Counted from the stretch's first letter, positions 1 to 47,761 are shown. The stretch: DNA of 54,373 nt from a virus (IMGVR_UViG_3300027869_000008:1-54373); one strand, 5' to 3'. The notes: generated from the sequence alone by a model not told the origin. A program made the numbers and translations.

Positions 1-137
1 TCTGTAGCTACTCCTCCACTATAGCCGCCGTAGCCTCCGTAGTAGGGGGAGGTTCCGTAGGGACTTCCTCCGTAACTTGAACCGTAGGAACTACCGTAAC
101 CGTATGGTGAGCCACCGTAGCCATATCCATAAGGAGA
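1..137. repeat. Terminal direct repeat (left copy); circular assembly overlap
   Basis: 1-137 matches 54236-54373 except that this copy lacks one T (ctac-tcc vs ctacttcc). Confidence 0.95.
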
Positions 138-992
138 ACTTGAGTATCCATAAGGAGACCCTGAGTATCCAGTGCCCCCATAGCCACTATAACCATAAGG
201 GGAACTAGAGTAGGCAGGGGGATAGGAGGAGCCATAACTTGGAGTATTCCCACCTATAGGCGTCCAAGGACCTGCAACTCCATTTGTAACGGAGGCCATC
301 GCCCCTCCAGGAGTTCCCCCACCTTGTGCTGGATAACTTCCGTACCCATAAGGGCTACCGTACCCAGATGAATAACCTCCACCCATCGATGGCCCATAAC
401 CGTAGCCATTGAAATTACCCATCGTTGGGGGGTAACCATATGAACCCATCATCCCATTGATCCCTCCAGTGAAGGGAGGAGTCATCCCACCTGTTTGACC
501 TACTCGTCCTGCCCAGAGTTGGTAGGGGTTAAGACCTTGGTTGCCACCAGAACTAGCTGGGGGGACTGGGGGAGTTGTGGTGCTTACACCACCGGGTAAC
601 TGAGTGAGGCCGGGGCGATTCGAGGTGCCTGCATCCATAGAGGCTCTGCGGATAGGGGCTTGTTGAGTCTGAAGAGGGGGAGTAGCTGGAGGCATGGGAG
701 CTCCAGTTCCTCCGGTGTTGGTGGGGGTTCCACTTCCACTCCCAGGGGAGGATAGGGAGGGGAGATTCGTACCATATTGGGAATTGAAGAATTGAGTATC
801 TGTCCCTTGACCGCTGAGATATCCTGCGTCGAGACCCATGAGGCCACCGAATTCTTGGATCTGTTCGGGGGTGAGATAGCCCTGCATTCCATCCCAGCTT
901 TCGAGGGTATCCCCTGAGCCGGAGGGATTCGTCTGAGGGGCATTATGGAGAAGCTGCCCAGCGAGTGTGGTGTATGGATCAGTGGTAGCCAT
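1..992 (-). CDS. 5' part of a ~438-aa G/S/Y/P-rich low-complexity putative internal virion protein spanning the contig junction (continues 54247..53912)
   Basis: Hand translation from ATG 992 (MATTDPYTTLAGQLL...) is open to position 1. With the right-hand repeat copy it joins in frame to ORF 53912..54223. Missing from the ORF track. Confidence 0.85.
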   Translation of the reverse strand, partial: MATTDPYTTLAGQLLHNAPQTNPSGSGDTLESWDGMQGYLTPEQIQEFGGLMGLDAGYLSGQGTDTQFFNSQYGTNLPSLSSPGSGSGTPTNTGGTGAPMPPATPPLQTQQAPIRRASMDAGTSNRPGLTQLPGGVSTTTPPVPPASSGGNQGLNPYQLWAGRVGQTGGMTPPFTGGINGMMGSYGYPPTMGNFNGYGYGPSMGGGYSSGYGSPYGYGSYPAQGGGTPGGAMASVTNGVAGPWTPIGGNTPSYGSSYPPAYSSSPYGYSGYGGTGYSGSPYGYSSSPYGYGYGGSPYGYGSSYGSSYGGSPYGTSPYYGGYGGYSGGVAT

Positions 993-3160: not shown

Positions 3161-3973
3161 TTATCCCCACGCTACCGTTCGGAGGAATTGTTGTTCTCGG
3201 AAAGCTAGCATAGACTGGCGGATTCTATTCTTTGCTTCGGGAGAGGACTTAAAAACTCCTCTGCCAATTCGATTCCAGCGACTATGGATTCGATTCTTTC
3301 TAGCTTCCGATTGGGCAGGAGTTTCTGGTAGTTCACCAGAAGCATAACGCCTTTTCAGAGTGGCACTGATAGACTTCCGGCGCTCCTCGGGAGTCAGCTT
3401 ACCTCGGTTACTTATAGCCATACGGGTCTTCCATTCTTCAGTTTTAGGGGCGTTTCGCCCAAGACTTAGGTTAGCTTCCACCTTAGCCCTCTTCTCAGGG
3501 GATAGTTCTCGACTCCACGTTACTAACCCTTGGCGGTGTCGATTGACGTACTCAGGATCGCTGAGTTGTTTTTGCTTGGCGACTCTGAGCTTCTCAATCG
3601 TTTCAGGAGAAACAGGATGTCCTATAAGGCTTCGAGATAACTTATCCCTGGATTCTTGAGATAATACCCTTCCAGGCTCTCCCTCCCCTCCATCGCTAAG
3701 GTTAGTTAAGTCACAACCCATATCTCTATAATACTTAATCCATCTCCTTTCCGCTTCAGCCCAATTTCCTCCACTCGGAACTACCTCAACAATTTCCATA
3801 ATGAAACATTCACCGGCTTCGATTAAACAACGAAACCAGTTAGCCTTCCAGGTGTCGTCCTCAGACTCACGCTTCCAATGTTGATACCGCTTCTTAGGGT
3901 CAACAGTCTTACCGACATAGCGAATAGCTTTGTCTCTAGGATCACGGAGAATATAGATCGAAGTTGATTTCAT
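3161..3973 (-). CDS. GIY-YIG homing endonuclease with NUMOD3-like repeats
   Basis: SIYIL...RYVGKT, AERRWI, LTNLSDGGEG, then S.ESRDKLS / SPETIEKL / TEEWKTRM repeats. Confidence 0.9.
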   Translation of the reverse strand: MKSTSIYILRDPRDKAIRYVGKTVDPKKRYQHWKRESEDDTWKANWFRCLIEAGECFIMEIVEVVPSGGNWAEAERRWIKYYRDMGCDLTNLSDGGEGEPGRVLSQESRDKLSRSLIGHPVSPETIEKLRVAKQKQLSDPEYVNRHRQGLVTWSRELSPEKRAKVEANLSLGRNAPKTEEWKTRMAISNRGKLTPEERRKSISATLKRRYASGELPETPAQSEARKNRIHSRWNRIGRGVFKSSPEAKNRIRQSMLAFREQQFLRTVAWG

Positions 3974-3987
3974 TAAGTCCTTTGTTT

Positions 3988-5328
3988 TTAAGGAAGTAGC
4001 CAGCCTCCGCCGTAGCTGCCGCCAAAAATTTCGCGCCCTGTAGCAGCACCCATCTGAAAAGGTCCTGGATAATCAGAAGCTCTCATCGCTCTAATCTGAG
4101 TCTCGAACTCTGCCCGTAACTGAGCGGCCCCTTCTCTATCTTGCTCTGCCTCACGGAAGTAACTGAGGAGATAAAGACTGAGGGGTCCGTGCCATTCATT
4201 AGGGATCTGGAGAGTCTGCGAAGCCATTCCTTGAACATAGTTGGGGAAGTGTTTACGGAGTCCGGCGAAGCGGATGTTGAGTTCGGTGATCGTGGCTCCC
4301 CCGTTGGCGAAGCTGAGGGCGGGAGTTCCACCGAGGGCACGGGTTACGTTAGTCATTTGAGGGGTGGCGTTAATCGCTGAATAAGCAATGATCTCAGTGC
4401 GAGGAGCTCCAGGGTAATAGCCTGCGTTTCCGGGGGAGGGATTCCCGGTGATAGCGGCGAGGCCGAAGGGGAGGACAAAGTTGGCGGAGCTCGTTAGGGT
4501 GATGGTGGTGTCACCGATATTAATCTGAGCTCCATTCGTTGTGGAGCCTGAGGTGCGCTGGGGTTGAGGGAAGACTTCAGCGATGGCTCGTTCGGCGTTG
4601 TAGCTGACAGCGGCTCCCCACGAGTAGCCATTCGTGGAGTTCGCGTAGAAGAAATTACGCTTATTGAAGATCTCCATTACATACCCATCGTACCAACCGT
4701 GGGTGAGACGCTTCCACAGGCCGGTGAGGGTATACATGGGGACAGCGTTGATGCTACCTACTCCAGTGACATCTCGGATTCCTCCAGTGTAATTCGCGGC
4801 GAGACGAAGGCCATTATTTAGCCACATATACATCTGGGCGGCACTGATGAGCTTACCGTCTTGGTCGGGGAGATAGGCGGTAGAGGCTGTGGCAGGGTAG
4901 CCGGTACCGGCGACTTCGTAGCAGGGAGGGGTGACGCTGCCACCTTGATTTAGAGTAAAGGTGGCGGGGAAGAGACCTGAGGTGATTCCAGGGGTGGGGG
5001 GATAGGTGGTGGGGAAGTAGTCGAAGTAGGCATTCTCGCCACCCGCAGTCAGGCCGTAGTAGATACGGATGCGGACAGCGGTGGGATCTGGGGTGAAGGT
5101 TACTTGAATGCTATGATTCGCGCCGACTACTTGACCGGAGGATTCAGCGGACGGAATCGATTCTCCCCAGAGATTGAACTGGGAGACTTTTAGGTAGTAG
5201 GTGGTGGCGGGGATAGGGTTTGCGCCGACTGCTACGACAGCGTAAGATAAGCCAGTGGGCGGTCCAAGGGTAAGGGGCTTATCGGGGCCCAGGATGCGAG
5301 CTTGTACGATGGCGTCTCCGACGGTCAC
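3988..5328 (-). CDS. Head-tail adaptor / tail tubular protein A-like, with inserted FN3-like domain
   Basis: MTVGDAI start, WLNNGL, VFPQP, IPNEWHGPL..Y...EQD adaptor-like motifs; lies between capsid and nozzle genes. Confidence 0.6.
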   Translation of the reverse strand: MTVGDAIVQARILGPDKPLTLGPPTGLSYAVVAVGANPIPATTYYLKVSQFNLWGESIPSAESSGQVVGANHSIQVTFTPDPTAVRIRIYYGLTAGGENAYFDYFPTTYPPTPGITSGLFPATFTLNQGGSVTPPCYEVAGTGYPATASTAYLPDQDGKLISAAQMYMWLNNGLRLAANYTGGIRDVTGVGSINAVPMYTLTGLWKRLTHGWYDGYVMEIFNKRNFFYANSTNGYSWGAAVSYNAERAIAEVFPQPQRTSGSTTNGAQINIGDTTITLTSSANFVLPFGLAAITGNPSPGNAGYYPGAPRTEIIAYSAINATPQMTNVTRALGGTPALSFANGGATITELNIRFAGLRKHFPNYVQGMASQTLQIPNEWHGPLSLYLLSYFREAEQDREGAAQLRAEFETQIRAMRASDYPGPFQMGAATGREIFGGSYGGGWLLP

Positions 5329-5355
5329 CCTTCTCCTTTATGTTCCACATAAATG

Positions 5356-5377
5356 GGCTGTAGCGACTACTACAGCC
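5356..5377 (-). other. 8-bp hairpin directly after the micro-peptide stop
   Basis: ggctgtag-N6-ctacagcc perfect inverted repeat. Confidence 0.5.
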
Positions 5378-5481
5378 TAGCGACGGCCTCGTCGCCGTGG
5401 GGCACGCTTGACGATACGCTGTTTAGCGTAGGACTTCCGGCCCCCCATTCTCATTCCTTTGTGTCTGGACATTCTGTGCAT
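5377..5481 (-). CDS. 34-aa Arg/Lys-rich protamine-like peptide (MHRMSRHKGMRMGGRKSYAKQRIVKRAPRRRGRR)
   Basis: Hand translation; RBS AAGGAGGATAACTCA-ATG; fills an intergenic gap; no acidic residues. Confidence 0.8.
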   Translation of the reverse strand: MHRMSRHKGMRMGGRKSYAKQRIVKRAPRRRGRR

Positions 5482-5503
5482 TGAGTTATCCTCCTTGAAT
5501 TCA

Positions 5504-5560
5504 GGTGGGAGTGCCCTCTAGATCATAACGCTCCCCCGAGCGTTTGACCTCACCCCCACC
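5504..5560 (-). other. Long bulged hairpin (10+6+7 bp); possible RNase III / processing or regulatory site
   Basis: ggtgggggtg/cactcccacc, aggtca/tgatct, aacgctc/gagcgtt with a 6-nt bulge. The G-U pairs work only on the minus (sense) strand. Confidence 0.65.
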
Positions 5561-5566
5561 AACTTG

Positions 5567-5971
5567 TTAGTTTCCTGCAACCTCGAAGTCGTACAATAAC
5601 TGTCCGTTGGCCACATTTCCCATGGTGACAATCACACTGATTGAATTGATGGCGATGTCTGTGCAAAAACTTGTTACCTCATCGGGGAGATCAGAAGCCG
5701 CGAAGGACGCACCAGGGCCACGGAGGACACGAGTGTTTGTGCCGTCAGTGGCAGTGACTTTGAGTCCGGTGATTTGGCCTGCACCTGCTCCGGGGTAGCT
5801 TGTAGCCTTAAATCGGAGTTGTCCTTGATGGATGGTGATTCCAGTAGGGAGAGCTGTAGCTGTGGTGGTCGTAGCATTCGTCGCTGCTGTGGTAGCCAAA
5901 GTCGAAGCGTAGACCATCGGAGGGACTCCGAAGTTTGGAATGCGGTCGTAGATGCTGTGAACGAATGCCAT
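5567..5971 (-). CDS. Putative capsid decoration protein, paralogue 2
   Basis: Start MAFVHS with RBS AAAGGA; Thr-rich beta protein after the capsid gene; similar to 5992..6435. Confidence 0.6.
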   Translation of the reverse strand: MAFVHSIYDRIPNFGVPPMVYASTLATTAATNATTTTATALPTGITIHQGQLRFKATSYPGAGAGQITGLKVTATDGTNTRVLRGPGASFAASDLPDEVTSFCTDIAINSISVIVTMGNVANGQLLYDFEVAGN

Positions 5972-5991
5972 GTCGGTAAGTCCTTTGTTTT

Positions 5992-6435
5992 CTAGGGCTC
6001 CAAGCACAATTCAAAATCTAAAACCGATTGTCCATTCGCGACGTTCGTCATAACTACGACGAAGGCGATAGTCGGGGCGAGCAGAGGGTTCTGGACCGTG
6101 ATAAGGTCTGTGATGAAATCGAAGGTGAAGTCGAATAGGGCGGAGGCCGCTTGAGCGGGGACTTCAGCTAGGATTAGGGTGTTCGTGCCATCGCTGATTT
6201 GGACGGTGACAGAGCTCACAACACCAGCGCCGGTTCCAGGATAGGTGAGGGCGATGGTGTTCTGAGTCTTAACACGAATCTTACCAGCGGTGATCGATAC
6301 CATGCTACCCAACTGGGCGTTGGTGAACGTGGTCGTGGTGGTCGCGTTCGTGGCATTGGTCACCCCGGTCTTGGAGAAGGTGAGTGGGGTACCGTAACCG
6401 ATTGTCGTTTTCTGGAGCGAGTTGATAATCGCCAT
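5992..6435 (-). CDS. Putative capsid decoration protein, paralogue 1
   Basis: Directly downstream of the capsid gene, RBS AGGAG, beta-rich. Confidence 0.6.
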   Translation of the reverse strand: MAIINSLQKTTIGYGTPLTFSKTGVTNATNATTTTTFTNAQLGSMVSITAGKIRVKTQNTIALTYPGTGAGVVSSVTVQISDGTNTLILAEVPAQAASALFDFTFDFITDLITVQNPLLAPTIAFVVVMTNVANGQSVLDFELCLEP

Positions 6436-6456
6436 AGTGTTATAGTCTCCTGTGCG

Positions 6457-7443
6457 TTAGCTCGCCAGCGAAGTGATCGCGACCTGATTGCGGGGGCCGA
6501 CGCAGGACACGTTCCAGGTTACGTACATCGAGGAAGTGATGACGCGCTGGTTCGAGGGCTTCAGCCACGGGTCGATTGTGAAATAGTCGTCTTCGTGGAA
6601 GACGGGCCAGAGGTACTTGGTGTTCAGGATGAAGGCGACGCCGGTGGGGGCGAAGCGGTCAGCGAACACGACGCAGTTGTTGAAGAGGAAGTGATAGCGG
6701 AAACCTGCTTGCACGGCCTCTTGGTCCTGCATGTTTGAAGTGAAACGCTCCAGGCCCACGAAGTTCTGCTTGAAGGCGGCGAACTGGGTCTGAGTCATAA
6801 TCATCAGATCGGGTTCGTCGTAGCCGAAGACGGTGGATTGATAGGCAGTCTCAGCGATGGTCGGGGTGAGGTTGCCGCCACCACCGGAGACGTTCGCCTG
6901 GGGGAGCCAGAAGGCATTCGCGGCGGTTGCGCGGTTGATTCCAGCGATGGTATTGTTGGTCGTCTGGACCCAGGAGACGAGATCGTCAACGTCCAAGGAG
7001 GTGTTCTGGGGAGCCGTGTGCCAGAGAGCTCGGCAGAGCTTTTGTAAGAGGGAGGCTGAGGCGATCTGGAACTTCGTCTTTACGATGTCCAGACCCATCG
7101 CTCCGCCACGGTTTAAGATGATGTCCGTGATGGGGAGGGAGAGGGTCTGGCGGTAGAATTTCCAGACTTGGTTCGCGGGTTGGATCGAGTCCACGACTGC
7201 GGTATCCAAGAGCTGGTCACCGTAGTAAGCTCCGCCCGTCATTTCTTCAGTGGTGGCGAGAGGGTAGACGAGCTCGCCAGTGGCGAACTTCTTACCTTCG
7301 CGGGTGAAGCCCCACCACACGGGGGAAGGCAGGAAGACCACATCACCGATGATCGGTTGGATGTGCTTCTCGGTGATCGCGTTCGCCGTGTTCACTAGTT
7401 GAACGGGCGGGGTGTTCATTCCCGTGCCTACTTGAAAACTCAT
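6457..7443 (-). CDS. Major capsid protein
   Basis: 328 aa; WKFY, IAGINRAT..FW, PDLMIMT, AGF...LFN, FILNTKYL, C..PRNQ motifs of HK97-fold podoviral capsids; strong RBS and biased codons; follows the scaffold. Confidence 0.9.
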   Translation of the reverse strand: MSFQVGTGMNTPPVQLVNTANAITEKHIQPIIGDVVFLPSPVWWGFTREGKKFATGELVYPLATTEEMTGGAYYGDQLLDTAVVDSIQPANQVWKFYRQTLSLPITDIILNRGGAMGLDIVKTKFQIASASLLQKLCRALWHTAPQNTSLDVDDLVSWVQTTNNTIAGINRATAANAFWLPQANVSGGGGNLTPTIAETAYQSTVFGYDEPDLMIMTQTQFAAFKQNFVGLERFTSNMQDQEAVQAGFRYHFLFNNCVVFADRFAPTGVAFILNTKYLWPVFHEDDYFTIDPWLKPSNQRVITSSMYVTWNVSCVGPRNQVAITSLAS

Positions 7444-7456
7444 AAGTCCTCCTGAA

Positions 7457-7999
7457 TCAGATAGATACAGCCAAAGTGTTCGAGTCTACTTCGCCTAATT
7501 CCCGCTCCCTTTGGTGCGGGCAGCCTCCAAATTTACCCTTAGCGAAGTTACAGTTCATACACAAGAGACTGTACTTATCTTTCGGGTATCCTTCGGCTCT
7601 AGCCATCCGGTACATCTTAAATCCAGTAATGCCTTTCTCATGCTGCTCCCTTCCATTTACATGGTCGAGAGTTAGAAACTCGTGGCGATCTTCGCCACAA
7701 CACTGACAGCTACCACCGTAAGCTCGGATGAAGTCTCGTTTAGTCCGTGCACGTTCTCCACGCTCATAGTTCCTAAGCTTCTCGGAATTCTGAGACTTAT
7801 AAGACTTAATCCGTTCCAATGACTTCTCCAAGGTCTTCAAAGTCCAACGGCGTTTGTATTCCTTAGCTTTCTCAGGATGGGCTGTTAACCAATCCTTCCG
7901 AACTTTCTTACTAAACTCAAGGTGAGTCTGGTAGTACTTCTTGCATCTACGATTCACCGATGCTCTCGCTGCTTCCGAGTTGGGATCAGCGTAGGGCAT
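7457..7999 (-). CDS. HNH homing endonuclease
   Basis: YGGSCQCCG..LTLDHVN...LLCMNCN..K; start probably MPYADP. Confidence 0.88.
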   Translation of the reverse strand: MPYADPNSEAARASVNRRCKKYYQTHLEFSKKVRKDWLTAHPEKAKEYKRRWTLKTLEKSLERIKSYKSQNSEKLRNYERGERARTKRDFIRAYGGSCQCCGEDRHEFLTLDHVNGREQHEKGITGFKMYRMARAEGYPKDKYSLLCMNCNFAKGKFGGCPHQRERELGEVDSNTLAVSI

Positions 8000-8001
8000 T
8001 T

Positions 8002-8871
8002 CTACTGTACACTCCACATCGACGGATCATTCCGGGCGGCATCGATAGCCTGACCGAAGGGATCGTGACGGTTGATCTTGCTCATGTCTACTTTTGGTTT
8101 CTGAACGGGAGAGCCTCCACCACCGGGGCGGGGAATCGAGACGATTCGATTCTGCTGACGCCCTTCAAGCTCCTTGACCTTACCATCGAGTTCTTTCTTT
8201 TCCTCAGACGCACGTCTGAGTTCAGCCTCACGCTTGGCGCTCAAACGGGATTCACGGAGGCGATCTGCGGTGCGTCGGATATTCGGGGTACCGAAGTTGT
8301 CGAGGTCACGGGCGTCATTCGCCATCTTGATGAGGTCGGCTCGGGAGGGGACGGGATCGTCACCGTAGGCTTCCTTCAGGGAGGAGGAGGCGTAGTCGTA
8401 TTGACGGTCCCAACGTTCCTCTGCGAGCATTGTGGCGAGGGCTTGTTGGGAGCGGCCCATCATTTGCAATGACCTAACTAGGGCTTCACGATCCTTCTGG
8501 AGCCAGTCCACGAGGGGGGAAAATTCGACGCTACCTTGATAGGTGCGGAGGGGGGCGTAGTAATCGTTTTGATCGGGAGCACCAGCGGGTGCAGACCCAG
8601 GTGCGACGGAACGTGTCGCAGCGGCTTCTTGGATGGCACGTTCACGCTCTTGAACGCGAGCGAACATGTTTGCTACGTCAGCGGCTTGGGAGTCGAGCTC
8701 GGAGCGGAGACGGGTGAGCTCCTGGTCGCGGGTGCTCAATTTCTGTTCACGCTCAGCGTGGAGGGAGCGTAGCTCCCCGATGGTCGTCTGCTTCCCGTTA
8801 CCTAGGGTGAAGACGGTCTCGTCGGGGAAGTTCTTTTTATCTTGGAGGATTTCGTTCAATACGTTAGGCAT
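8002..8871 (-). CDS. Capsid scaffolding protein (putative)
   Basis: Charged coiled-coil protein upstream of the capsid gene. Confidence 0.65.
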   Translation of the reverse strand: MPNVLNEILQDKKNFPDETVFTLGNGKQTTIGELRSLHAEREQKLSTRDQELTRLRSELDSQAADVANMFARVQERERAIQEAAATRSVAPGSAPAGAPDQNDYYAPLRTYQGSVEFSPLVDWLQKDREALVRSLQMMGRSQQALATMLAEERWDRQYDYASSSLKEAYGDDPVPSRADLIKMANDARDLDNFGTPNIRRTADRLRESRLSAKREAELRRASEEKKELDGKVKELEGRQQNRIVSIPRPGGGGSPVQKPKVDMSKINRHDPFGQAIDAARNDPSMWSVQ

Positions 8872-8878
8872 AAGAGGG

Positions 8879-9319
8879 TTACCTCATTGTGGGGGAAGAT
8901 GGACCGGGCATGGGGCCGCCCATTCCAGGGTTAGCTCCGGGCATGGGATTCGGAGAGACCGCACTGGAACCGAGGGGGCCTCCTCCCATTGTGGACATTA
9001 CGTTTTGAGCTTCACGGAAGGCGTCGATGGCTTTGCTGATTGCTTTCATGGCGGCAGTGAGACCGTCGGCGCTCTTTGGGATACGCATAGCGTATTGAGG
9101 GATGAAGGAGATGATTTTCTGTTGCATCGCCTGGAGTTCTTTCAAGCCTGCTTCGGGATCGGCTCCTCGGAGCTCACTCAACTGTTGAGCGACCGCGTTA
9201 GCTGTCGAGGAGGGATCGAAGCCGGAGGGTCCCATGGGTCCACCCATAGGGTTTCCCCCGGGGCCTCGAAAGGCCATCCCTTGGCGGGCGGCGAGCATCG
9301 GATTGGCGGGGGTTGCCAT
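8879..9319 (-). CDS. Hypothetical head-region protein, Pro/Gly/Met-rich termini
   Basis: 146-aa ORF in a tight operon. Confidence 0.7.
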   Translation of the reverse strand: MATPANPMLAARQGMAFRGPGGNPMGGPMGPSGFDPSSTANAVAQQLSELRGADPEAGLKELQAMQQKIISFIPQYAMRIPKSADGLTAAMKAISKAIDAFREAQNVMSTMGGGPLGSSAVSPNPMPGANPGMGGPMPGPSSPTMR

Positions 9320-9338
9320 TTTTGATTAGCCTAGCTTT

Positions 9339-9521
9339 CTACTTCTTAGTGCCTCGGCTGGATGACTTCGAGCCGCCAGGGACGAAGCCTAGAGGGTCGG
9401 AGGCAGTGAGGACACGAGGGTTGTTGACGGGGAAACGGGGGTCGCCCGAGGGGAGCTTGGCATCGAGAGGGGTTACGAAGTTACCGTAGCCGTCTTTGCC
9501 ACTGCTGGATTTCTTTGCCAT
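9339..9521 (-). CDS. 60-aa hypothetical protein with basic termini
   Basis: RBS AAGGAG; biased codon usage. Confidence 0.75.
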   Translation of the reverse strand: MAKKSSSGKDGYGNFVTPLDAKLPSGDPRFPVNNPRVLTASDPLGFVPGGSKSSSRGTKK

Positions 9522-9553
9522 TTCATTCTCCTTCGTACTAAATTTGATTCATC

Positions 9554-9682
9554 AAAAGACCCACGGGGGCCCTCTGCTTAGGACAGAAGGTCCCCGCTGG
9601 AGCTGCCTCCGCCCCGAGCATAACCCGCTCGGCATCTAGTATCTATGCCGGACGGTGTTTGTCCGAGGGGCGCTCCGAGTCT
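9554..9682 (-). ncRNA. Candidate multibranch structured RNA (~126 nt) ending in a U-tract
   Basis: Nested stems agactc/gggtct, ggagc/gctcc, gcccc/ggggc enclosing ggac/gtcc, ggcat/atgcc and gagc/gctc hairpins, plus an 11-bp hairpin ggggaccttctg/cagagggcccc. Confidence 0.6.
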
Positions 9683-9737
9683 ACTTACGTTTACCTCCCC
9701 GCTTGTGACGGCGGCCTCCACGCTTGTGACGAGCCAT
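9681..9737 (-). CDS. 18-aa protamine/RGG-like peptide (MARHKRGGRRHKRGGKRK)
   Basis: Hand translation; RBS AAAGGAGGATAACCAAC-ATG; internal RHKRGG duplication with synonymous differences. Confidence 0.75.
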   Translation of the reverse strand: MARHKRGGRRHKRGGKRK

Positions 9738-9757
9738 GTTGGTTATCCTCCTTTCGC

Positions 9758-10042
9758 TTAGACTGTTACCATTTCTCTTTCAAACCGGGGGTCGTTGGGG
9801 ATCTCATGGCGGGAGTCACCGTAGATGGAGATCATCTCGGAGGCGCGTCGGCAGAGATAGCTGATCCAAGATTCCTCGGTTGTGAAACGTTCTCGGGTTG
9901 AAGCGTGTTCCATGAATGGGACTGATGGGGTGCCATCGATGGCGATTTGAACTTCGATCCATTCGCTTTGCTTGGGTACGGGGGAGATCTTGAGAATCTC
10001 CACGCGGTGACCTGAGGTGAAGGAATGGGAGAACTGTTTCAC
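9758..10042 (-). CDS. Hypothetical protein, probably leaderless
   Basis: 94 aa; GTG start 7 nt after a -10 box; no RBS. Confidence 0.7.
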   Translation of the reverse strand: MKQFSHSFTSGHRVEILKISPVPKQSEWIEVQIAIDGTPSVPFMEHASTRERFTTEESWISYLCRRASEMISIYGDSRHEIPNDPRFEREMVTV

Positions 10043-10111: not shown

Positions 10112-10342
10112 CTAGAGAGAGCGGGGAATCTCTACCCAGACTCGTTTATATTGGTGGTGAGGGGTTTGGTGGAGACGGTAACCGAAGCTCAATAATGAAC
10201 CATCTGAGGCGAGGTTTAGAATGGTGCTGTAGGGGCGGTTAAGGCGTCGGGAGAGCTCCCGGAGGGAGACCCACTCTGTGGAGGATTGGGTGGGTGTCCC
10301 TTGGGGGGGCGCGGCTTTCGCTATGGATGGGGAGGGGGTCAT
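10112..10342 (-). CDS. Small HTH DNA-binding protein
   Basis: WVSLRELSRRLNRPYSTILNL helix-turn-helix pattern. Confidence 0.65.
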   Translation of the reverse strand: MTPSPSIAKAAPPQGTPTQSSTEWVSLRELSRRLNRPYSTILNLASDGSLLSFGYRLHQTPHHQYKRVWVEIPRSL

Positions 10343-12045
10343 CGGCGGGATTTGATATGGGAGAGGGCGGCGAGCTCTTGTTCACGCTGTAAGCCTGCGG
10401 CGATCTCTTCGGCTTCGGGGACCTCCAGCATTTCGAGGGCGTGCTTAGTGTCGAGGAGACCTTCGCTGCGGAGATCCTTGACCATGCTGCGAAGTGCGGC
10501 GGTGGAGACGGGGCGGAGTGAACCGGCGTCGAGTTCGATGGTGTAGTCTTCGAGTTCGTCACCGGAGGTGCCGCTCCATTTTACTTCACCTACTTCTTCG
10601 CCACGACTAAAGGCGGGGAAGGTTCTATCGTTCACGTAGTATTTGACCATCGTGTAGAACAATAATTCACTGAAGCGTTGGATGGGTTCGCTAAACAGAC
10701 GGGCTCTCAAACGGGTGAGATACTGTGCTTGGTAGAGGGTGGCGTCGAAGAGTCCGGGGGATGTGTTACCTGCGCCACCTTCTCCTTGACGGGAAGACGC
10801 GAAGCCCTGGAGTTCACGTTGGAGAGTTAGGAGTCTATCTGGGAACTCTAGAACCTGAGAGGGATAAACATTCGGGGTTTTATATTCAGGGGGCTTAGAG
10901 TTCGCGTGGATTACTCTGACCTCACCGGGGATACCACCAAAGTCATCTGGGTCGATGCCGCAGTCGTCGTAGAGGAAGACTTGGGCGTTATTTACGCGGA
11001 CCATGTTCTCGAAGATTTGGGTGTACATCCTCTCGCTGAGATCCTGGAGTGATTTAGTGAAGCGCATCGGGGGAGGGGGATACCAGCCGAATAAGCAGGG
11101 GAGGGAGGGGAATTTGATGATCGGGAAACGGCGGAGAGGAAAGGGATTGTTGTCATCGAATAGCTTTACGCCTTCGCAGTCTACGATCATTCGACCGTTT
11201 GGGTACTTCATCTTAAATTTAGGTGGGACTGAAAGTCCCCCGAGGTCTCGGGCGAACTCGGAGCCTGCGATATCTTTTACGACTTCAGTGGTGTTATCGT
11301 AGATGAAGGTGTAGCGGACGGTGGCCTTACCGTCGTTCTGGGCACGGTTCTGGAAGTGAGGGCCCATCGTTGAAGTCATGGGGCCGGGTAGCATGTCGAA
11401 CTGACCTGCGGGTTGGTCACCGAGGCCACTAATAAACTGATGGGCTCCAGGTTGGACGTAGGCTCCACGGTCCCAGTATTGGGCGATCTTGTCTACGTAC
11501 ATATCGTCTGTCCACTGGACCCACTGCCAATCGTCTTCGTTGTGGGCGGAGGGGTCGGGGAAGCAACGGGAAGCTAGGATATTCGTGGCGTAGACGAGAC
11601 CTTGACCACGGCGAGCGAAGGCATCGAAGCCTACCATGAGGTAACCGACACCGAAGACCATACTGCTTAGGTAAGTTTCGAGTAGTCGATTGTTGATGAA
11701 GCCCTGACGCCAATGTTGGCGGAATGAATCTTCCCGTTCCTTGTCTCTTTCGCTGTGCTTGGCGACGTAGACTATTGGAGTCGTATCAGATAGGTCTGTG
11801 GCTTCGTTGAGGAAGAGTGTTTGGAGCTGGGGGATACGGACACGGGGTCTAAAAGAGGGGACATCCCCCATGGAGTCTGCGATGTGGTAGAAGTTTTTTG
11901 CATCTTCTTGCCAGCCGACACCGAAAGATGCCCTCTGGCTATCCTGGGAAAGTCTTTGTAACTCGTCTAACTGGCGGAGAAGGCGAGAGTCCGGGGAGTC
12001 GTCACGGCTACTGGACTTCGTGGAGACAGTTCTGAAATTAGCCAC
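10339..12045 (-). CDS. Portal protein (P22-like)
   Basis: 568 aa; FGVGYL.VG.D, FPDP.A, YPNGRMI, DNNPF..FP, LQD, PGEV motifs; lies between TerL and scaffold. Confidence 0.88.
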   Translation of the reverse strand: MANFRTVSTKSSSRDDSPDSRLLRQLDELQRLSQDSQRASFGVGWQEDAKNFYHIADSMGDVPSFRPRVRIPQLQTLFLNEATDLSDTTPIVYVAKHSERDKEREDSFRQHWRQGFINNRLLETYLSSMVFGVGYLMVGFDAFARRGQGLVYATNILASRCFPDPSAHNEDDWQWVQWTDDMYVDKIAQYWDRGAYVQPGAHQFISGLGDQPAGQFDMLPGPMTSTMGPHFQNRAQNDGKATVRYTFIYDNTTEVVKDIAGSEFARDLGGLSVPPKFKMKYPNGRMIVDCEGVKLFDDNNPFPLRRFPIIKFPSLPCLFGWYPPPPMRFTKSLQDLSERMYTQIFENMVRVNNAQVFLYDDCGIDPDDFGGIPGEVRVIHANSKPPEYKTPNVYPSQVLEFPDRLLTLQRELQGFASSRQGEGGAGNTSPGLFDATLYQAQYLTRLRARLFSEPIQRFSELLFYTMVKYYVNDRTFPAFSRGEEVGEVKWSGTSGDELEDYTIELDAGSLRPVSTAALRSMVKDLRSEGLLDTKHALEMLEVPEAEEIAAGLQREQELAALSHIKSRR

Positions 12046-16691: not shown

Positions 16692-17116
16692 TTCGCAGCC
16701 TCCTGGAGGCGCATGGCCTCATATTGACTCTCCCGCTTCTTGTTCAGCCAACGCTTCAATGCCCCCCGCTTCGCACGAGCTGAGTGTACAGAACGCTCCC
16801 CCCTCATCTGCTGCTCCGGGTACAGGAGAGCCTTGGTGATTCCTCCGATGACTCCGGCGTGTTGAATCTGCTTGAGTCCAGTGGGATAAATAAGTTCAAG
16901 CTCTCGCATTCTCTTATCGTACCGCCGAAGCGCCTCCCTTCGCAGATCTTCAGGGAGGAACCAGAAGAGGTCCATACGATTTCTAATCCGGTCCACCCAC
17001 CGAATCCCCTTAACAAGAGGGTGTTTTGGTCTGGACTTAAGATGCTCAAGGGGCCCATGCTTCCTGAGATCTTCGCGTCGCTCAAGCTGTTCGAGGTAAT
17101 AGGCATCTGGCTTCAC
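16688..17116 (-). CDS. Basic hypothetical protein
   Basis: 142 aa; 4-nt overlaps on both sides. Confidence 0.7.
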   Translation of the reverse strand: MKPDAYYLEQLERREDLRKHGPLEHLKSRPKHPLVKGIRWVDRIRNRMDLFWFLPEDLRREALRRYDKRMRELELIYPTGLKQIQHAGVIGGITKALLYPEQQMRGERSVHSARAKRGALKRWLNKKRESQYEAMRLQEAAK

Positions 17117-17277
17117 CGCTTCTTCCCCCTCCGCTTCGTCCTACGCTTACGACGACGCGACTCCCTCTTCTTCCTCATCGAAGCGGCGACAGCACTTTTC
17201 TGGGAGTGGCCTGAGTGAATCATCTCCCTGATATTTTCACTTACGACTTCGCTGCTGGTACCAGGGTGGAGGGGCAT
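17113..17277 (-). CDS. 54-aa small phage protein (MPLHPGTSSEVVSENIREMIHSG...) with protamine-like tail RKKRESRRRKRRTKRRGKKR
   Basis: Hand translation; resembles the common MPL..G.S..V.S.NI.E...SG...QAVA small phage protein; exactly fills the gap between flanking genes. Confidence 0.8.
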   Translation of the reverse strand: MPLHPGTSSEVVSENIREMIHSGHSQKSAVAASMRKKRESRRRKRRTKRRGKKR

Positions 17278-39064: not shown

Positions 39065-41671
39065 ATGGTCTGTGGCCCTCACTGTAACGACTGCCCTCAG
39101 CAACCTATCGGGAATAAGTTCATCCCCCCCAGTGGCACAGGTTCCTCAGGGATGATGCTAGTTGCGGATAGTCCGTGGATCGATGAGATTCGTCTTGGTT
39201 ATCCCTTCGCTGGAGCAGCGGGGAGTATGTTAGACCGGATGCTCAAGAGAGCAGGAATCGACAGACATACTCTCACAATCGTTAACACGATCCAATGTCA
39301 ACCCCCACGTCTGGGGTGGATGGATAATTCCCATAAAATCCCTGAAGCCGCTGCCGCCATTAATCACTGCCGTCCCCACCTTGATGAGCTGATCGCTCAG
39401 CGGCAACCCAGGGTGATTGTTCCGATGGGGAATGTAGCCTTGGAGCGGGTGTGTGGAGTCAGGGGGATAGAAGAGAGGCAGGCGTATTATCACCCGACTC
39501 AGGGCTACGGGTGCTGGGCTATCCCCACCTTTCATCCCTCAAACATCCTACAGGGGAATCAGAAGTTCGTCCCCGCCTTTCTATTTGCACTACGTAGAGC
39601 TAAGGAAGCCGCAGAGGGAATAGGACTAGATCACTTTAATCTGATCCTCGATCCCTCCCCGATGGACCTAGAGGCATACATCGACTCCCTCCCTGAGCAC
39701 CTCGAATACATCGTCCTGGACATCGAGACTCCCGAGTCGTCATCTCTAGATGAAGATGAGCTAGAAGAAAGTGGCGTCAGCTTCAACATTGTGAGAGCTG
39801 GTTTCTGCGCCCGAGAGACTGAGGGAGTATCATTCCCCTGGACCCCCCCTTACATCCCCCTCCTCCAGAAGGTGATTGATCGAGCAGGATTCATTGTAGA
39901 GTGGGCCACGAATCACTTTGACTCGCGTAGACTTCGAGCTCACGGTATTACCATCCCCCCCGAGAAATCCGTCAGTGGAATGTGGCAGTGGCATTTCCTC
40001 CACTCTGATCTCCCCAAGGGCCTCGGTAAGGTAGCTCCCTTCTTTATGAGGCTGGAGCCCTGGAAACATCTATCCAGCGCCCAACCAGCCTACTACAACG
40101 CAATGGACCAAGCAGTTCCCTTCACGATCTGGAAGAAGTGTGAGGAGGCTCTGCGTAGAGAGGGGAGGTGGGATGCTTATCGTAGACATATCCTCGACAT
40201 GGAAGGTCCTTTCGCGGAGATGCACTCCGCTGGGATTCTCATCGATACAGTGGCCCAGGATAAGCTAAAGGGAGAGCTTGAGGAGGACTACAAGGTAGAG
40301 GTCTCGAAGATCCAACCTCTCATCCCTGAGAGTATCTTGAAGGAAAAACTCTGGAAACGCCCCCCGAAGGATATGCAGGGAGTTCAGTCTAGGATCATCG
40401 ACTGCTTCGTCTGCGACGCCACAGGTCTCCAAGAGGGAGGCACGAAGCCTTGTAAGACTTGCAAGGCCACCGGGAAGGTCACAGAGTACTTCAAGAAGCT
40501 CCCCTTTAACCCACATGGGAGCGCCCCGGATACGAAGAACCTAGCCCGTCACCTAGGGCTAAAGCTCCCCAAGTCTAGAGAAACTGGCGACGACACCGCC
40601 CAGGAGAAGCACCTGAAGGTCTTCGCGAGGAAGTTTCCGATCTTCTTGGACATCCTACGAGCTAGGAAGATCTCTAAGATGGGGAGTGCGTACATTTGGC
40701 CTACGGATAGCCAAGGTAGAATCCATACGACCTTTGGCTTTCATCCATCGACGCTTCGTAAGTCAAGCCGCTCCCCCGCGTTACAGACGATCCCCAAGAG
40801 AGATCCCATCTTAGCTGCGAGGGTGAGGAGGACGATTAAGTCCTCCCCTGGCCATAGATTACTAACAGCAGACTCCGCCGCAATCGAAGCCGTCCTAACA
40901 GGATACTGGGCTAAGTCGAAGCCCCTCATGCGCTTATCTACAGCGGGTATCCACGATTGGCTCCTCGCGAAGAAGCTGGGCCAACCGATCCCCTTAGACA
41001 TCCCTGATGACGAATTAAGGGCCCGTTGTAAGGCCGCCAAGAAACTAAACCCAGTCCTGCGGGAAATGTGTAAGCGCGTGATCCACATGTCAAACTATCT
41101 TGCGACCCCCAATCGCATCCTCGAAGAATACCCCGATGACTTCAAGTCTCTAAAGGAAGCCAGGGAGCTCCAGGATTTCTACCTTGATACTGAACCTGGG
41201 CAGGACCTTCGTAGATGGCACAAGCAAACCTGCGACGAAGCCTCCTATCACACCTATCTCGACAATAGCTTCGGCTACCGTCATTACTTCTTTGATGTCT
41301 ACACCTTCAGCTACTCCCGCTATCGATCCCTTAAGTCAAAGGGGATGTGTGATGCGGATGCCCGTAGCGGCGCGTGGACCTGGGGAGATGACGCGAAGAG
41401 GGCCATCGCTTTCCGGCCTCAGTCGGATGCCTCAGCGATCCAGACCCTCATCGTCCTGTGGCTCCGTGAACACTACCCTGAGATCGCCCAGTGGCTTCGA
41501 CTCCTGATCCATGATGAACTCGTCTTTGACATGCCGGAGGCTCTCATTGAACCATCGGTCCCCATCGTCAAAGAAGCAATGGAGCAACCGTGGCCCCAGC
41601 TTCAAGGACTTCGGATAGGATGTGAAATGAAGGTAGGATTGAATCTAGCAGATATGGAGGTGATAGCATGA
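39065..41671 (+). CDS. polA: Family A DNA polymerase fused to an N-terminal uracil-DNA glycosylase-like domain, with 3'-5' exonuclease
   Basis: UDG: CNDCP, PFAGAAG, N..C.PP, PTFHPS; exo: LDIET, NHFD, YNAMD; pol: R.SS.SP.LQTIP, ADSAAIE, R...K...Y, PQS.A, IHDELVF. Confidence 0.93.
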   Translation: MVCGPHCNDCPQQPIGNKFIPPSGTGSSGMMLVADSPWIDEIRLGYPFAGAAGSMLDRMLKRAGIDRHTLTIVNTIQCQPPRLGWMDNSHKIPEAAAAINHCRPHLDELIAQRQPRVIVPMGNVALERVCGVRGIEERQAYYHPTQGYGCWAIPTFHPSNILQGNQKFVPAFLFALRRAKEAAEGIGLDHFNLILDPSPMDLEAYIDSLPEHLEYIVLDIETPESSSLDEDELEESGVSFNIVRAGFCARETEGVSFPWTPPYIPLLQKVIDRAGFIVEWATNHFDSRRLRAHGITIPPEKSVSGMWQWHFLHSDLPKGLGKVAPFFMRLEPWKHLSSAQPAYYNAMDQAVPFTIWKKCEEALRREGRWDAYRRHILDMEGPFAEMHSAGILIDTVAQDKLKGELEEDYKVEVSKIQPLIPESILKEKLWKRPPKDMQGVQSRIIDCFVCDATGLQEGGTKPCKTCKATGKVTEYFKKLPFNPHGSAPDTKNLARHLGLKLPKSRETGDDTAQEKHLKVFARKFPIFLDILRARKISKMGSAYIWPTDSQGRIHTTFGFHPSTLRKSSRSPALQTIPKRDPILAARVRRTIKSSPGHRLLTADSAAIEAVLTGYWAKSKPLMRLSTAGIHDWLLAKKLGQPIPLDIPDDELRARCKAAKKLNPVLREMCKRVIHMSNYLATPNRILEEYPDDFKSLKEARELQDFYLDTEPGQDLRRWHKQTCDEASYHTYLDNSFGYRHYFFDVYTFSYSRYRSLKSKGMCDADARSGAWTWGDDAKRAIAFRPQSDASAIQTLIVLWLREHYPEIAQWLRLLIHDELVFDMPEALIEPSVPIVKEAMEQPWPQLQGLRIGCEMKVGLNLADMEVIA

Positions 41672-47614: not shown

Positions 47615-47761
47615 CTACCTCCGGGAACCTCTCTTCGATTTACGCTTCTTGATGCGCTTACTGCGACGGCCACTACCTACGGGATGGGGACCCTTTTGCC
47701 CACCTCTACGGAGACCGGCTAGATTCTCTGTGTCGTAACTCTCGTGAAGACACTCTTTCAT
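47615..47761 (-). CDS. 48-aa peptide with Arg/Lys-rich tail (...GRRSKRIKKRKSKRGSRR)
   Basis: Hand translation; RBS GAGGAGG; ends 2 nt before the next start. Confidence 0.75.
   Translation of the reverse strand: MKECLHESYDTENLAGLRRGGQKGPHPVGSGRRSKRIKKRKSKRGSRR

What the first reader, a model, noticed from the sequence alone, without database searches (positions are those of the whole stretch)
5377..9737. Protamine/RGG-like micro-peptide genes with matching strong RBSs flank the capsid genes
Seen: MARHKRGGRRHKRGGKRK (9681-9737) and MHRMSRHKGMRMGGRKSYAKQRIVKRAPRRRGRR (5377-5481). Both follow AAGGAGGATAAC, both contain RHK and GGR, and neither has an acidic residue. Arg/Lys tails also occur at 17113-17277 and 47615-47761. 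All are below the ORF-caller cutoff. Known: protamine-like core proteins condense DNA in adenovirus (mu, VII) and baculovirus (P6.9), while tailed phages are usually thought to rely on polyamines and cations. Inference: a phage-encoded DNA-condensing peptide set, or Arg-rich-motif RNA binders.
Basis: partly seen in the sequence, partly recalled or inferred. Interest (0 to 1): 0.8.

Follow-up and report, generated by a model that had tools for sequence, protein, structure and literature searches.

The report
Conserved polycationic micro-genes in phage head module
Two tiny, extremely basic peptide genes sit among the capsid genes of this soil phage. The shorter type is kept in essentially every relative found, so they are real genes, probably nucleic-acid-binding polycations made together with the head, although their function has not been tested.

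Summary
Both ORFs exist as quoted, on the minus strand: 18 aa at 9681-9737 and 34 aa at 5377-5481. Each sits behind the same 12-base Shine-Dalgarno string, which occurs nowhere else in this complete 54-kb phage genome.

The 18-aa type is not chance. In the portal-to-scaffold interval, 81 of 82 related loci carry 1-4 SD-led basic micro-ORFs (70 of 82 under a strict filter). Their density is 13-42 times that of the rest of the loci. A second clade has them in 23 of 27 loci. Substitutions are biased to third codon positions, pN/pS is 0.22-0.61, and one peptide is identical in four phages whose capsid proteins differ by 7-18%.

The 34-aa ORF has only positional and compositional counterparts, in 12 of 69 loci.

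No Pfam, NCBIfam, PHROG or Rfam family matches, and five literature searches found no description.

Function is inferred, not shown. The best reading is abundant late polycations that bind phage DNA during head assembly or packaging. Rivals are RNA or ribosome binders, cis-regulatory leader peptides and host-directed effectors. The host is probably Acidobacteriota, on weak evidence.

The parts
9681..9737 (-). 18-aa polycationic micro-ORF ('pepB'): 10 Lys+Arg, 2 His, no acidic residue
   Evidence: It belongs to the short family that starts Met-Ala and ends Arg-Lys, found at the same position in relatives.
9742..9753 (-). Shine-Dalgarno 12-mer of pepB, 4 bases before the ATG
   Evidence: The predicted duplex with a generic anti-SD is -11.9 kcal/mol, against -10.3 for the capsid gene.
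9694..9731 (-). In-frame internal duplication inside pepB: two 17-nt copies, 21 nt (7 codons) apart
   Evidence: The single mismatch within the copies is a synonymous third-position change, read from the sequence.
9522..9680 (-). 159-nt non-coding, hairpin-rich spacer between pepB and the next gene
   Evidence: predicts hairpins, but z = -1.54, which is not significant. No Rfam family matches.
5377..5481 (-). 34-aa polycationic micro-ORF ('pepA'): 15 Lys+Arg, no acidic residue
   Evidence: Positional counterparts exist in 12 of 69 loci. There is no significant sequence similarity to them.
5485..5496 (-). Shine-Dalgarno 12-mer of pepA, identical to that of pepB
   Evidence: Duplex energy is -11.2 kcal/mol.
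5504..5560 (-). Long stable hairpin between the stop of the 146-aa gene and the pepA SD
   Evidence: The region 5329-5566 folds at -91.8 kcal/mol, z = -4.38, and 0 of 200 shuffles fold as well.
5356..5377 (-). 9-bp hairpin starting at the pepA stop codon, terminator-like
17113..17277 (-). 54-aa ORF with an SD and a strongly basic C-terminal tail (net +14)
   Evidence: Conservation was not examined.
47615..47761 (-). 48-aa ORF with an SD and a basic C-terminal tail (net +12), in the tail-gene block
   Evidence: It is a called 'hypothetical' gene in the public collection.
10339..12045 (-). Portal-like protein, the upstream boundary of the micro-ORF interval
   Evidence: Named from position and size. 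No Pfam or PHROG hit. Conserved at 31-43% identity in 81 of 84 loci.
9758..10042 (-). 94-aa conserved gene immediately upstream of pepB
   Evidence: 31 of 84 loci by tblastn.
9339..9521 (-). 60-aa Pro-rich small protein with basic ends, downstream of pepB
8002..9319 (-). 146-aa Gly/Pro/Met-rich protein and 289-aa scaffold-like protein
6457..7443 (-). Major capsid protein
   Evidence: Weak SU10_MCP match. 25% identity to the Mx8 major head protein. 45-66% identity to 84 loci.
3988..5328 (-). 446-aa structural protein immediately downstream of pepA
   Evidence: 68 of 84 loci.

Best explanation
The two ORFs are real, independently translated micro-genes of a complete 54-kb tailed phage. They encode unstructured polycations (net +10 and +15).

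The 18-aa one belongs to an old, conserved set of 1-4 such genes that this phage lineage keeps between its portal and scaffold genes. The 34-aa one occupies a second, less widely used slot, just before the first large structural gene after the capsid and decoration genes.

The proposed mechanism is inferred, not shown. The peptides are made late and in amounts comparable to the capsid protein. They bind the phage DNA electrostatically during or after motor-driven packaging, or wait in the procapsid. They act as built-in counter-ions that lower DNA self-repulsion and stabilise the filled head, and they leave with the DNA at ejection. Because they are encoded at final size, they would need no protease to release them.
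For: Shown:
- The ORFs, the SDs and the unique shared 12-mer.
- They lie in intergenic gaps of a co-directional head operon.
- In the portal-to-scaffold interval, 81 of 82 loci (window included) have 1-4 SD-led basic micro-ORFs: 198 ORFs and 141 distinct peptides, median 19 aa, median net charge +9. Under a strict filter it is 70 of 82. The one miss has a 47-aa ORF with a basic tail.
- Density is 1.52 per kb in the interval, against 0.12 elsewhere on the same strand and 0.09 on the opposite strand. Under the strict filter it is 0.77, 0.018 and 0.
- A clade with only 42-45% capsid identity keeps them in 23 of 27 loci. The four without hold at most 2,053 nt upstream of the capsid gene.
- Coding-type evolution. 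For the 19-aa type, variable sites at codon positions 1/2/3 number 3/2/8, and the sequence becomes unalignable right after the stop codon. Pooled pN/pS is 0.22-0.61 in six clusters. Four phages with 82-93% capsid identity share an identical 15-aa peptide, differing only at synonymous sites. K/R is the commonest exchange, and 81 of 289 differences stay within K/R/H.
- The internal duplication in pepB is in frame, with a synonymous mismatch.
- The SD duplex energies of the micro-ORFs (-11.2 to -12.3) are at or above that of the capsid gene (-10.3).

Inferred: high expression, DNA binding, and presence in the head.
Against: - There is no expression, proteomic or binding data. No RNA sequencing run holds the region.
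- No strongly acidic partner, prohead protease or targeting signal was seen nearby.
- The portal channel is thought to pass bare DNA, so the route into the head is unexplained.
- pepA has no significant similarity to its positional counterparts, and that slot is filled in only 12 of 69 loci.
- Synonymous divergence inside the identical 15-aa ORFs is lower than in the capsid gene: 94-100% against 75-83% nucleotide identity. This hints at an additional RNA-level or codon-usage constraint.
- pN/pS of 0.5-0.6 for the shortest types is only moderate constraint.
- The composition scan also gives 4 hits in the GC-rich phage Mx8, all inside annotated genes. Composition alone is therefore not diagnostic.
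Confidence: 0.42

Rival explanations
1. The peptides are trans-acting RNA or ribosome binders. They would be Arg-rich-motif peptides that bind hairpins in late phage mRNA for antitermination, stabilisation or translational control. Alternatively they would be mimics of small basic ribosomal proteins that bias translation towards strong-SD phage messages.
For: - The composition resembles Arg-rich RNA-binding motifs and small ribosomal proteins (recalled knowledge).
- GC-rich hairpins are enriched just after the micro-ORFs: 41% of 159 downstream 50-mers fold at -15 kcal/mol or below, against 14% of 168 control 50-mers inside capsid genes, Mann-Whitney p = 6e-4.
- pepA is bracketed by two strong hairpins, z = -4.38.
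- The C-termini are conserved: Arg-Lys in 86 of 141 peptides, and Arg-Tyr in a second type.
Against: - The regions after the stop codons are unalignable between relatives, so no conserved RNA partner is visible.
- There are 1-4 paralogues with low-complexity, freely K/R-exchanging sequences. This argues for non-specific polyanion binding.
- No Pfam or NCBIfam small-ribosomal-protein or N-protein model matches.
- The genes sit in the late structural operon, not in an early regulatory region.
- SD strength at capsid-gene level suits a stoichiometric role better than a regulatory one.
Confidence: 0.15
2. The micro-ORFs are cis-acting leader or arrest ORFs. Translating a short polybasic peptide right up to a downstream hairpin would tune termination, mRNA processing or stability for the head genes. 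The peptide itself would have no job after release.
For: - They are short ORFs with strong SDs followed closely by stable hairpins.
- Nucleotide conservation inside the ORF exceeds that of the capsid gene.
- The C-terminal residues next to the stop codon are conserved.
Against: - There is no translational coupling: 159 nt separate pepB from the next gene, and the next genes have their own SDs.
- Charge-conserving K/R exchange across different codon families (AAR versus CGN) points to selection on the product's charge.
- Up to four tandem copies of different sequence types is not how known leader peptides are organised (recalled).
- The hairpins are not conserved in sequence and only 41% are strong.
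Confidence: 0.12
3. The peptides are host-directed effectors made late. They would be polycations that compact or displace host nucleic acids, neutralise an acidic defence factor or signalling nucleotide, or act on membranes in the manner of cationic antimicrobial peptides.
For: - The extreme positive charge would bind any polyanion.
- There are several paralogues and rapid sequence turnover.
- Two further basic-tailed small ORFs lie elsewhere in the late region.
Against: - The position inside the head-assembly operon is strictly conserved across a lineage with only 31-43% portal identity. This is unusual for accessory host-takeover or anti-defence genes.
- The median hydrophobic fraction is 0.12, so the peptides are not amphipathic.
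- No strict hit lies in the early or replication half of the window.
Confidence: 0.12
4. The ORFs are chance ORFs in purine- and GC-rich spacers and have no function.
For: - They are very short.
- GC-rich phage DNA throws up Arg-rich out-of-frame ORFs: 4 strict hits in Mx8, all inside annotated genes.
- pepA has no alignable homologue.
Against: - Enrichment is 13- to 42-fold, strand-specific and position-specific.
- Presence is near-universal.
- Variation is third-position biased, and identical peptides are kept across diverged phages.
- Simulations expect 0.05 such ORFs against 2 observed.
Confidence: 0.04

Closest known systems
Microviridae protein J (phiX174, G4, alpha3) and the gokushovirus J-like peptide
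   Same: A phage-encoded peptide of a few dozen residues or fewer, very basic, with its gene inside the capsid and scaffold gene block. It is made in capsid-like amounts, enters the head with the DNA and neutralises its charge (recalled knowledge).
   Different: - J serves ssDNA phages whose packaging is coupled to replication, with no terminase or portal motor.
- J has a hydrophobic C-terminal anchor that binds the coat protein.
- No Pfam model, Microvir_J included, matched any of the 15 peptides of 20-45 aa scanned.
- The 18-aa peptide is too short to scan.
Adenovirus core peptides mu (pX) and VII; baculovirus P6.9
   Same: Protamine-like, Arg-rich condensers of a packaged dsDNA genome, present at hundreds of copies per particle (recalled; listed among the hits, only the listings seen).
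   Different: - These are eukaryotic viruses.
- Mu and VII are cut from precursors by the viral protease, whereas here the peptides are encoded at final size.
- There is no sequence relationship.
- Presence in virions is unproven here.
Internal head proteins of tailed phages (T4 IPI-III, SPP1 gp7 / Mu F-type minor head protein)
   Same: Basic, DNA-contacting proteins placed inside a motor-packaged head. Their genes often lie next to the portal gene, and they are ejected with the DNA (recalled).
   Different: - Those are folded proteins of about 8-35 kDa, with targeting sequences or portal binding.
- They neutralise only a small share of the DNA charge.
- Here the products are 11-45 aa with no predicted fold and no matching family.
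Arg-rich-motif antiterminators (lambda N, P22 N, HK022 Nun)
   Same: Short Arg-rich stretch; phage origin; RNA hairpins nearby (recalled; hairpins).
   Different: - The Arg-rich motif is part of a roughly 100-aa early regulator that recognises a specific conserved hairpin.
- Here the genes are late, multi-copy and low-complexity, and the neighbouring hairpins are not conserved in sequence.
Very small basic ribosomal proteins (bL34, bL36, bS21 tail, bTHX, bS22)
   Same: Size, charge and, for one subtype, a basic tail ending in an aromatic residue (recalled).
   Different: No NCBIfam or Pfam ribosomal model matches at E up to 10. The genomic context is head assembly.

Membership tests
Microvirus J protein (Pfam Microvir_J) | Sequence match to the family profile | tested here: not met
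   hmmscan against Pfam-A at E up to 10: no relevant family for the 15 peptides of 20-45 aa scanned, including pepA. The 18-aa pepB is below the tool's 20-residue minimum and was not scanned.
Microvirus J protein (Pfam Microvir_J) | Packaged with the genome and bound to the inner capsid surface | not testable with these tools
   Needs virion MS or cryo-EM.
Protamine-like viral core peptides (functional class) | Very high Arg/Lys content, no or almost no acidic residues, small size | tested here: met
   pepB has 10 of 18 K+R and no D/E. pepA has 15 of 34 K+R and no D/E. Family-wide, R is 26.9%, K 19.2% and D+E 3.7%.
Protamine-like viral core peptides (functional class) | Condenses or neutralises the packaged genome in the particle | not testable with these tools
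   No virion, binding or expression data. No RNA run is listed.
Arg-rich-motif antiterminators (N/Nun type) | Specific conserved RNA hairpin target (boxB-like) next to the gene, and early expression | tested here: not met
   Sequences after the ORFs are unalignable among relatives. No Rfam family matches in the window. The genes lie in the late head operon.
Small basic ribosomal proteins | Match to the curated NCBIfam or Pfam ribosomal protein models | tested here: not met
   0 families for 10 peptides in NCBIfam. No ribosomal model among the 15 peptides scanned in Pfam.
Known phage protein families (PHROGs) | Match to any PHROG profile | tested here: not met
   10 small proteins scanned. The only hit is an E = 0.2 match to a family of unknown function.
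Conserved micro-gene family of this phage lineage (defined here) | SD-led ORF of 9-50 aa, K+R at least one third, on the gene strand between the portal and scaffold genes | tested here: met
   pepB meets all criteria. 81 of 82 loci have at least one such ORF. It shares the Met-Ala start and Arg-Lys end with the commonest type.

The most novel reading that the evidence does not exclude
A large lineage of soil tailed phages, probably of Acidobacteriota, encodes its own protamine. This would be a set of 11-45-residue polycations translated at capsid-protein levels from free-standing micro-genes in the head operon and packed with the dsDNA as counter-ions. They would partly replace the Mg2+ and polyamines that motor-packaging phages are thought to depend on. 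It would be the first tailed-phage counterpart of phiX174 J and adenovirus mu. It would also show that standard gene callers miss an abundant virion component.
Probability: 0.33. Interest if true: 0.85.

Novelty: new variant of a known kind. Interest (0 to 1): 0.68.

Why it matters
If these peptides are in the head, the physics of DNA packaging, capsid pressure and ejection in tailed phages would have a protein-encoded variable that current models ignore. The view that motor-packaging phages do not use positively charged protein for genome neutralisation would then need an exception (PMC7096446, passages read).

Independently of function, the case shows that genes of 11-20 codons can be among the best-conserved elements of a phage structural operon. 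Here one is better conserved than the capsid protein in four genomes. Such genes are invisible to annotation pipelines. The family also offers short, easily synthesised peptides for direct biophysical tests.

Tried and rejected
- Megablast of 5000-10000 against 50,697 phage records: no match.
- tblastn of the portal protein against the same records: no match.
- The capsid protein reaches only Mx8-type phages at about 25% identity. The Mx8 head region has no such micro-ORF.
- The first portal-based scan of viral contigs found no relative.
- Rfam at gathering threshold: 0 matches in the window. tRNA scan: 0.
- The promoter and terminator scan was at the level of shuffled sequence.
- Sequencing-run search: only one DNA run, probably the source, and no RNA holder listed.
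- Exact look-up: pepA and the 54-aa ORF are not in the protein collection. Three syntenic peptides and the 48-aa ORF are there as unnamed or 'hypothetical' singletons.
- ESM Atlas for pepA: best score 0.83, unnamed clusters, uninformative.
The 43-aa syntenic peptide found only itself.
- BLASTP of pepA against two syntenic peptides: E = 1.3, and no alignment.
- The fold of the pepB region is not unusual (z = -1.54).
- Neighbouring proteins show no strongly acidic partner.
- Considered and not run: complex prediction of pepA with the capsid or 446-aa protein. The report does not claim a specific protein partner, and a disordered polycation is unlikely to give a verdict.
- Literature searches returned no paper describing polycationic micro-genes in tailed-phage head operons. 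Only listings and abstracts were seen, except PMC7096446 and PMC11323111 (passages) and PMC11924767 (outline and abstract).
Full report
**What is at the coordinates**

The window is a complete viral record of 54,373 bases. Each has ATG preceded, at 4 or 3 bases, by the same 12-base Shine-Dalgarno-containing string. That string occurs at no other place on either strand.

Neither peptide has Asp or Glu. K+R is 10 of 18 and 15 of 34. SD-led ORFs of this composition number 2 in the window. In 100 first-order Markov simulations the mean was 0.05 and the maximum 1; the thresholds were set after the fact.

The 18-aa ORF contains an in-frame duplication: 17-nt copies 21 nt apart, whose only mismatch is synonymous.

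The 48-aa one is a called gene in the public collection, so 'all below the ORF-caller cutoff' is only partly right.

**Context**

Genes from about 18 kb down to 1, continuing from the other end of the record, form one minus-strand structural block. The order is:

1. large terminase (weak Terminase_6N match);
2. a 143-aa gene;
3. a portal-sized protein;
4. 76-aa and 94-aa genes;
5. the 18-aa ORF;
6. a 60-aa Pro-rich protein;
7. a 146-aa Gly/Pro/Met-rich protein;
8. a 289-aa scaffold-like protein;
9. an HNH endonuclease;
10. the major capsid protein (weak SU10_MCP match; 25% identity to the Mx8 head protein);
11. two 146/147-aa decoration-like proteins;
12. the 34-aa ORF;
13. a 446-aa structural protein;
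14. a GIY-YIG endonuclease;
15. a 719-aa protein.

The micro-ORFs lie in true intergenic gaps and are not coupled to the next gene. There are 159 nt after the 18-aa ORF, and after the 34-aa ORF there are 48 nt that include a hairpin. The next genes have their own SDs.

Predicted SD/anti-SD pairing of the micro-ORFs (-11.9, -11.2 and, for the 48-aa ORF, -12.3 kcal/mol) is at or above that of the capsid gene (-10.3).

**Relatives**

The capsid protein found 4 related viral contigs. An alignment of the five proteins then found 133, of which the best 80 were fetched. It also found two short MAG contigs labelled Terracidiphilus and Bryobacterales. This is the only, and weak, host clue, pointing to Acidobacteriota.

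These phages are distant from the window. Capsid identity is 45-66% and portal identity 31-43%.

I scanned the gene strand between the portal end and the 146-aa or scaffold homologue. The loose filter asked for an SD, 9-50 aa, K+R of at least one third and at most 3 acidic residues.

- 81 of 82 loci (window included) have 1-4 such ORFs. The distribution is 0 ORFs in 1 locus, 1 in 17, 2 in 21, 3 in 33 and 4 in 10.
- This makes 198 ORFs and 141 distinct peptides, with median length 19 aa and median net charge +9.
- Composition is R 26.9%, K 19.2%, G 11.2%, H 4.6% and D+E 3.7%.
- 71 of 141 start Met-Ala and 86 of 141 end Arg-Lys.

With a strict filter (at least 11 aa, K+R at least 0.45, at most 1 acidic residue), 70 of 82 loci qualify. 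The 12 others carry longer or slightly less basic versions. The single loose-filter miss has a 47-aa ORF with a basic tail.

Density in the interval is 1.52 per kb. It is 0.12 per kb on the rest of the same strand and 0.09 per kb on the opposite strand of the interval. Under the strict filter the figures are 0.77, 0.018 and 0.

A further clade was reached through the Bryobacterales-contig capsid protein (28 loci; one, L043, was already among the 82). It carries a 12-aa and a 21-31-aa type at the same position in 23 of 27 new loci. The four without hold at most 2,053 nt upstream of the capsid gene.

Phage lambda has no strict hit. Mx8 has four, all inside annotated genes, and none in its head region. 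Composition alone is therefore not enough. Position and conservation carry the argument.

**Evidence that the peptide is what selection sees**

- For the 19-aa type (16 distinct nucleotide versions from 23 loci), variable sites at codon positions 1/2/3 number 3/2/8 of 19. Conservation starts at the SD and ends at the stop codon, beyond which the sequences cannot be aligned.
- Six automatically built clusters give pooled pN/pS of 0.22-0.61, or 0.53 overall. These are uncorrected proportions, and pS is near saturation in some clusters.
- Four phages whose capsid proteins are 82-93% identical (75-83% at the nucleotide level) share an identical 15-aa peptide. The ORFs are 94-100% identical, with only synonymous differences, and the flanks are 61-72% identical.
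- K/R is the commonest amino-acid exchange (48 of 289). In all, 81 of 289 differences stay within K/R/H. Because Lys (AAR) and Arg (mostly CGN here) share no codon family, this points to selection on charge rather than on a nucleotide motif.
- One caveat: synonymous change inside the identical ORFs is lower than in the capsid gene. Some RNA-level or codon-usage constraint may be added.

**The 34-aa ORF is less secure**

A basic SD-led micro-ORF ends within 400 nt upstream of the 446-aa homologue in 12 of 69 loci. These include the closest relative, which has a 43-aa ORF there, and a conserved 31-36-aa subfamily.

The window's peptide has no significant similarity to them: BLASTP gives E = 1.3 and no alignment. 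Its reality rests on four points:

- the shared unique SD string;
- the intergenic position;
- the positional analogues;
- the unusually structured setting, with hairpins on both sides, z = -4.38 and 0 of 200 shuffles as stable.

**Family membership**

None was found.

- Pfam gave nothing relevant for 15 peptides of 20-45 aa.
- NCBIfam gave nothing for 10 peptides.
- PHROGs gave nothing below E = 0.2.
- Rfam gave nothing in the window.
- Public collections call the few members they hold 'hypothetical'. The ESM Atlas was uninformative.
- The neighbouring head proteins also lack PHROG or Pfam names.
- No cultured phage is related by portal protein. The cultured Acidobacteriota phages of PMC11924767 (abstract read) did not appear among the capsid or portal hits.

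**Mechanism**

What is shown is a conserved, strand-, position- and composition-specific set of micro-genes with strong translation signals inside the head operon. What follows is inference.

The most economical reading is that these are abundant late polycations that bind the phage genome in or on its way into the head. In function they would be analogous to phiX174 J, adenovirus mu and VII, or the T4 internal proteins, but encoded at final size (comparators recalled).

As arithmetic on the genome length, neutralising 10% of the roughly 109,000 phosphate charges would need about 1,000 copies of the 18-aa peptide. That is in the range recalled for internal proteins of other viruses.

Several relatives carry variants with a short aromatic/acidic head or an aromatic last residue. 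These would suit an anchor-plus-tail design, but this is speculation.

Points against this reading:

- there are no expression or virion data;
- no acidic partner or targeting signal is evident;
- there is no explanation of how the peptides enter a motor-packaged head.

**Rivals**

- *RNA or ribosome binders.* Supported by the enrichment of stable hairpins after the ORFs, 41% against 14%, and by the conserved termini. Weakened by the lack of any conserved RNA partner and by the multi-copy, low-complexity nature of the peptides.
- *Cis-acting leader or arrest ORFs.* Supported by the hairpins and the high nucleotide conservation. Weakened by charge-conserving evolution, the lack of coupling and the tandem paralogues.
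- *Host-directed polycations.* Weakened by the strict head-operon synteny.
- *Chance.* Largely excluded for the 18-aa type.

**Novelty**

Five full-text searches turned up no description of such genes in tailed phages. PMC7096446 states that motor-packaging phages cluster apart from viruses that use positively charged domains. A review of phage small proteins does not mention capsid or packaging roles (term search). Supplementary small-ORF catalogues could not be inspected.

I rate it a new variant of a known kind (virus-encoded genome-associated polycations), with function unproven.

Noticed in passing
window 7457-8017 (-) and 3161-3973 (-): Two free-standing homing-endonuclease-type genes sit inside the structural operon. 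One is an HNH / endonuclease VII-like gene between the scaffold and capsid genes, overlapping the scaffold gene's end. The other is a GIY-YIG gene between the 446-aa and 719-aa proteins.
   Followed up: partly
window 3-992 (-), running off the window start: An ORF that runs off the window start (330 aa held here), with an extreme Gly/Ser/Tyr/Pro low-complexity C-terminal half of short Tyr-Gly-rich repeats. It is probably a fibre or adhesin-like tail component and continues at the other end of the record.
   Followed up: no
window 39065-41671 (+): An 868-aa protein fuses a uracil-DNA-glycosylase-superfamily domain to a family A DNA polymerase.
   Followed up: no
window 44826-46793 (-): A 655-aa protein in the tail block carries a GDSL lipase/acylhydrolase domain, possibly a polysaccharide-deacetylating tail enzyme.
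   Followed up: no
window 9522-9680 (-): The 159-nt spacer after the 18-aa ORF is hairpin-rich and holds a 19-codon ATG ORF with no SD. Relatives carry 2-4 micro-ORFs in this interval, so the spacer may be a decayed extra copy.
   Followed up: no
window 9339-9521 (-); L006, L008, L030, L050, L070: The 60-aa gene after the 18-aa ORF belongs to a small Pro-rich family with basic N- and C-termini and a conserved Asp-Pro-Leu-Gly motif. It may be another small head-internal protein.
   Followed up: partly
L002 2516-2859; L017, L045, L074 and others: Relatives carry up to four tandem micro-ORFs of distinct sequence types. Some have a short aromatic/acidic N-terminal head before the basic tail, and some end in Arg-Tyr or Arg-Trp.
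   Followed up: partly
L084 and L085: The only cellular-genome hits of the capsid profile are 5-6-kb contigs binned into Terracidiphilus and Bryobacterales MAGs. This suggests Acidobacteriota hosts, but binning of short phage contigs is unreliable.
   Followed up: no
loci (50 nt after micro-ORF stops): The hairpins after the micro-ORFs often have TTCG or similar tetraloops: TTCG in 10 of the predicted loops. Most lack a clear T-run, so they may be processing or stability elements rather than terminators.
   Followed up: no
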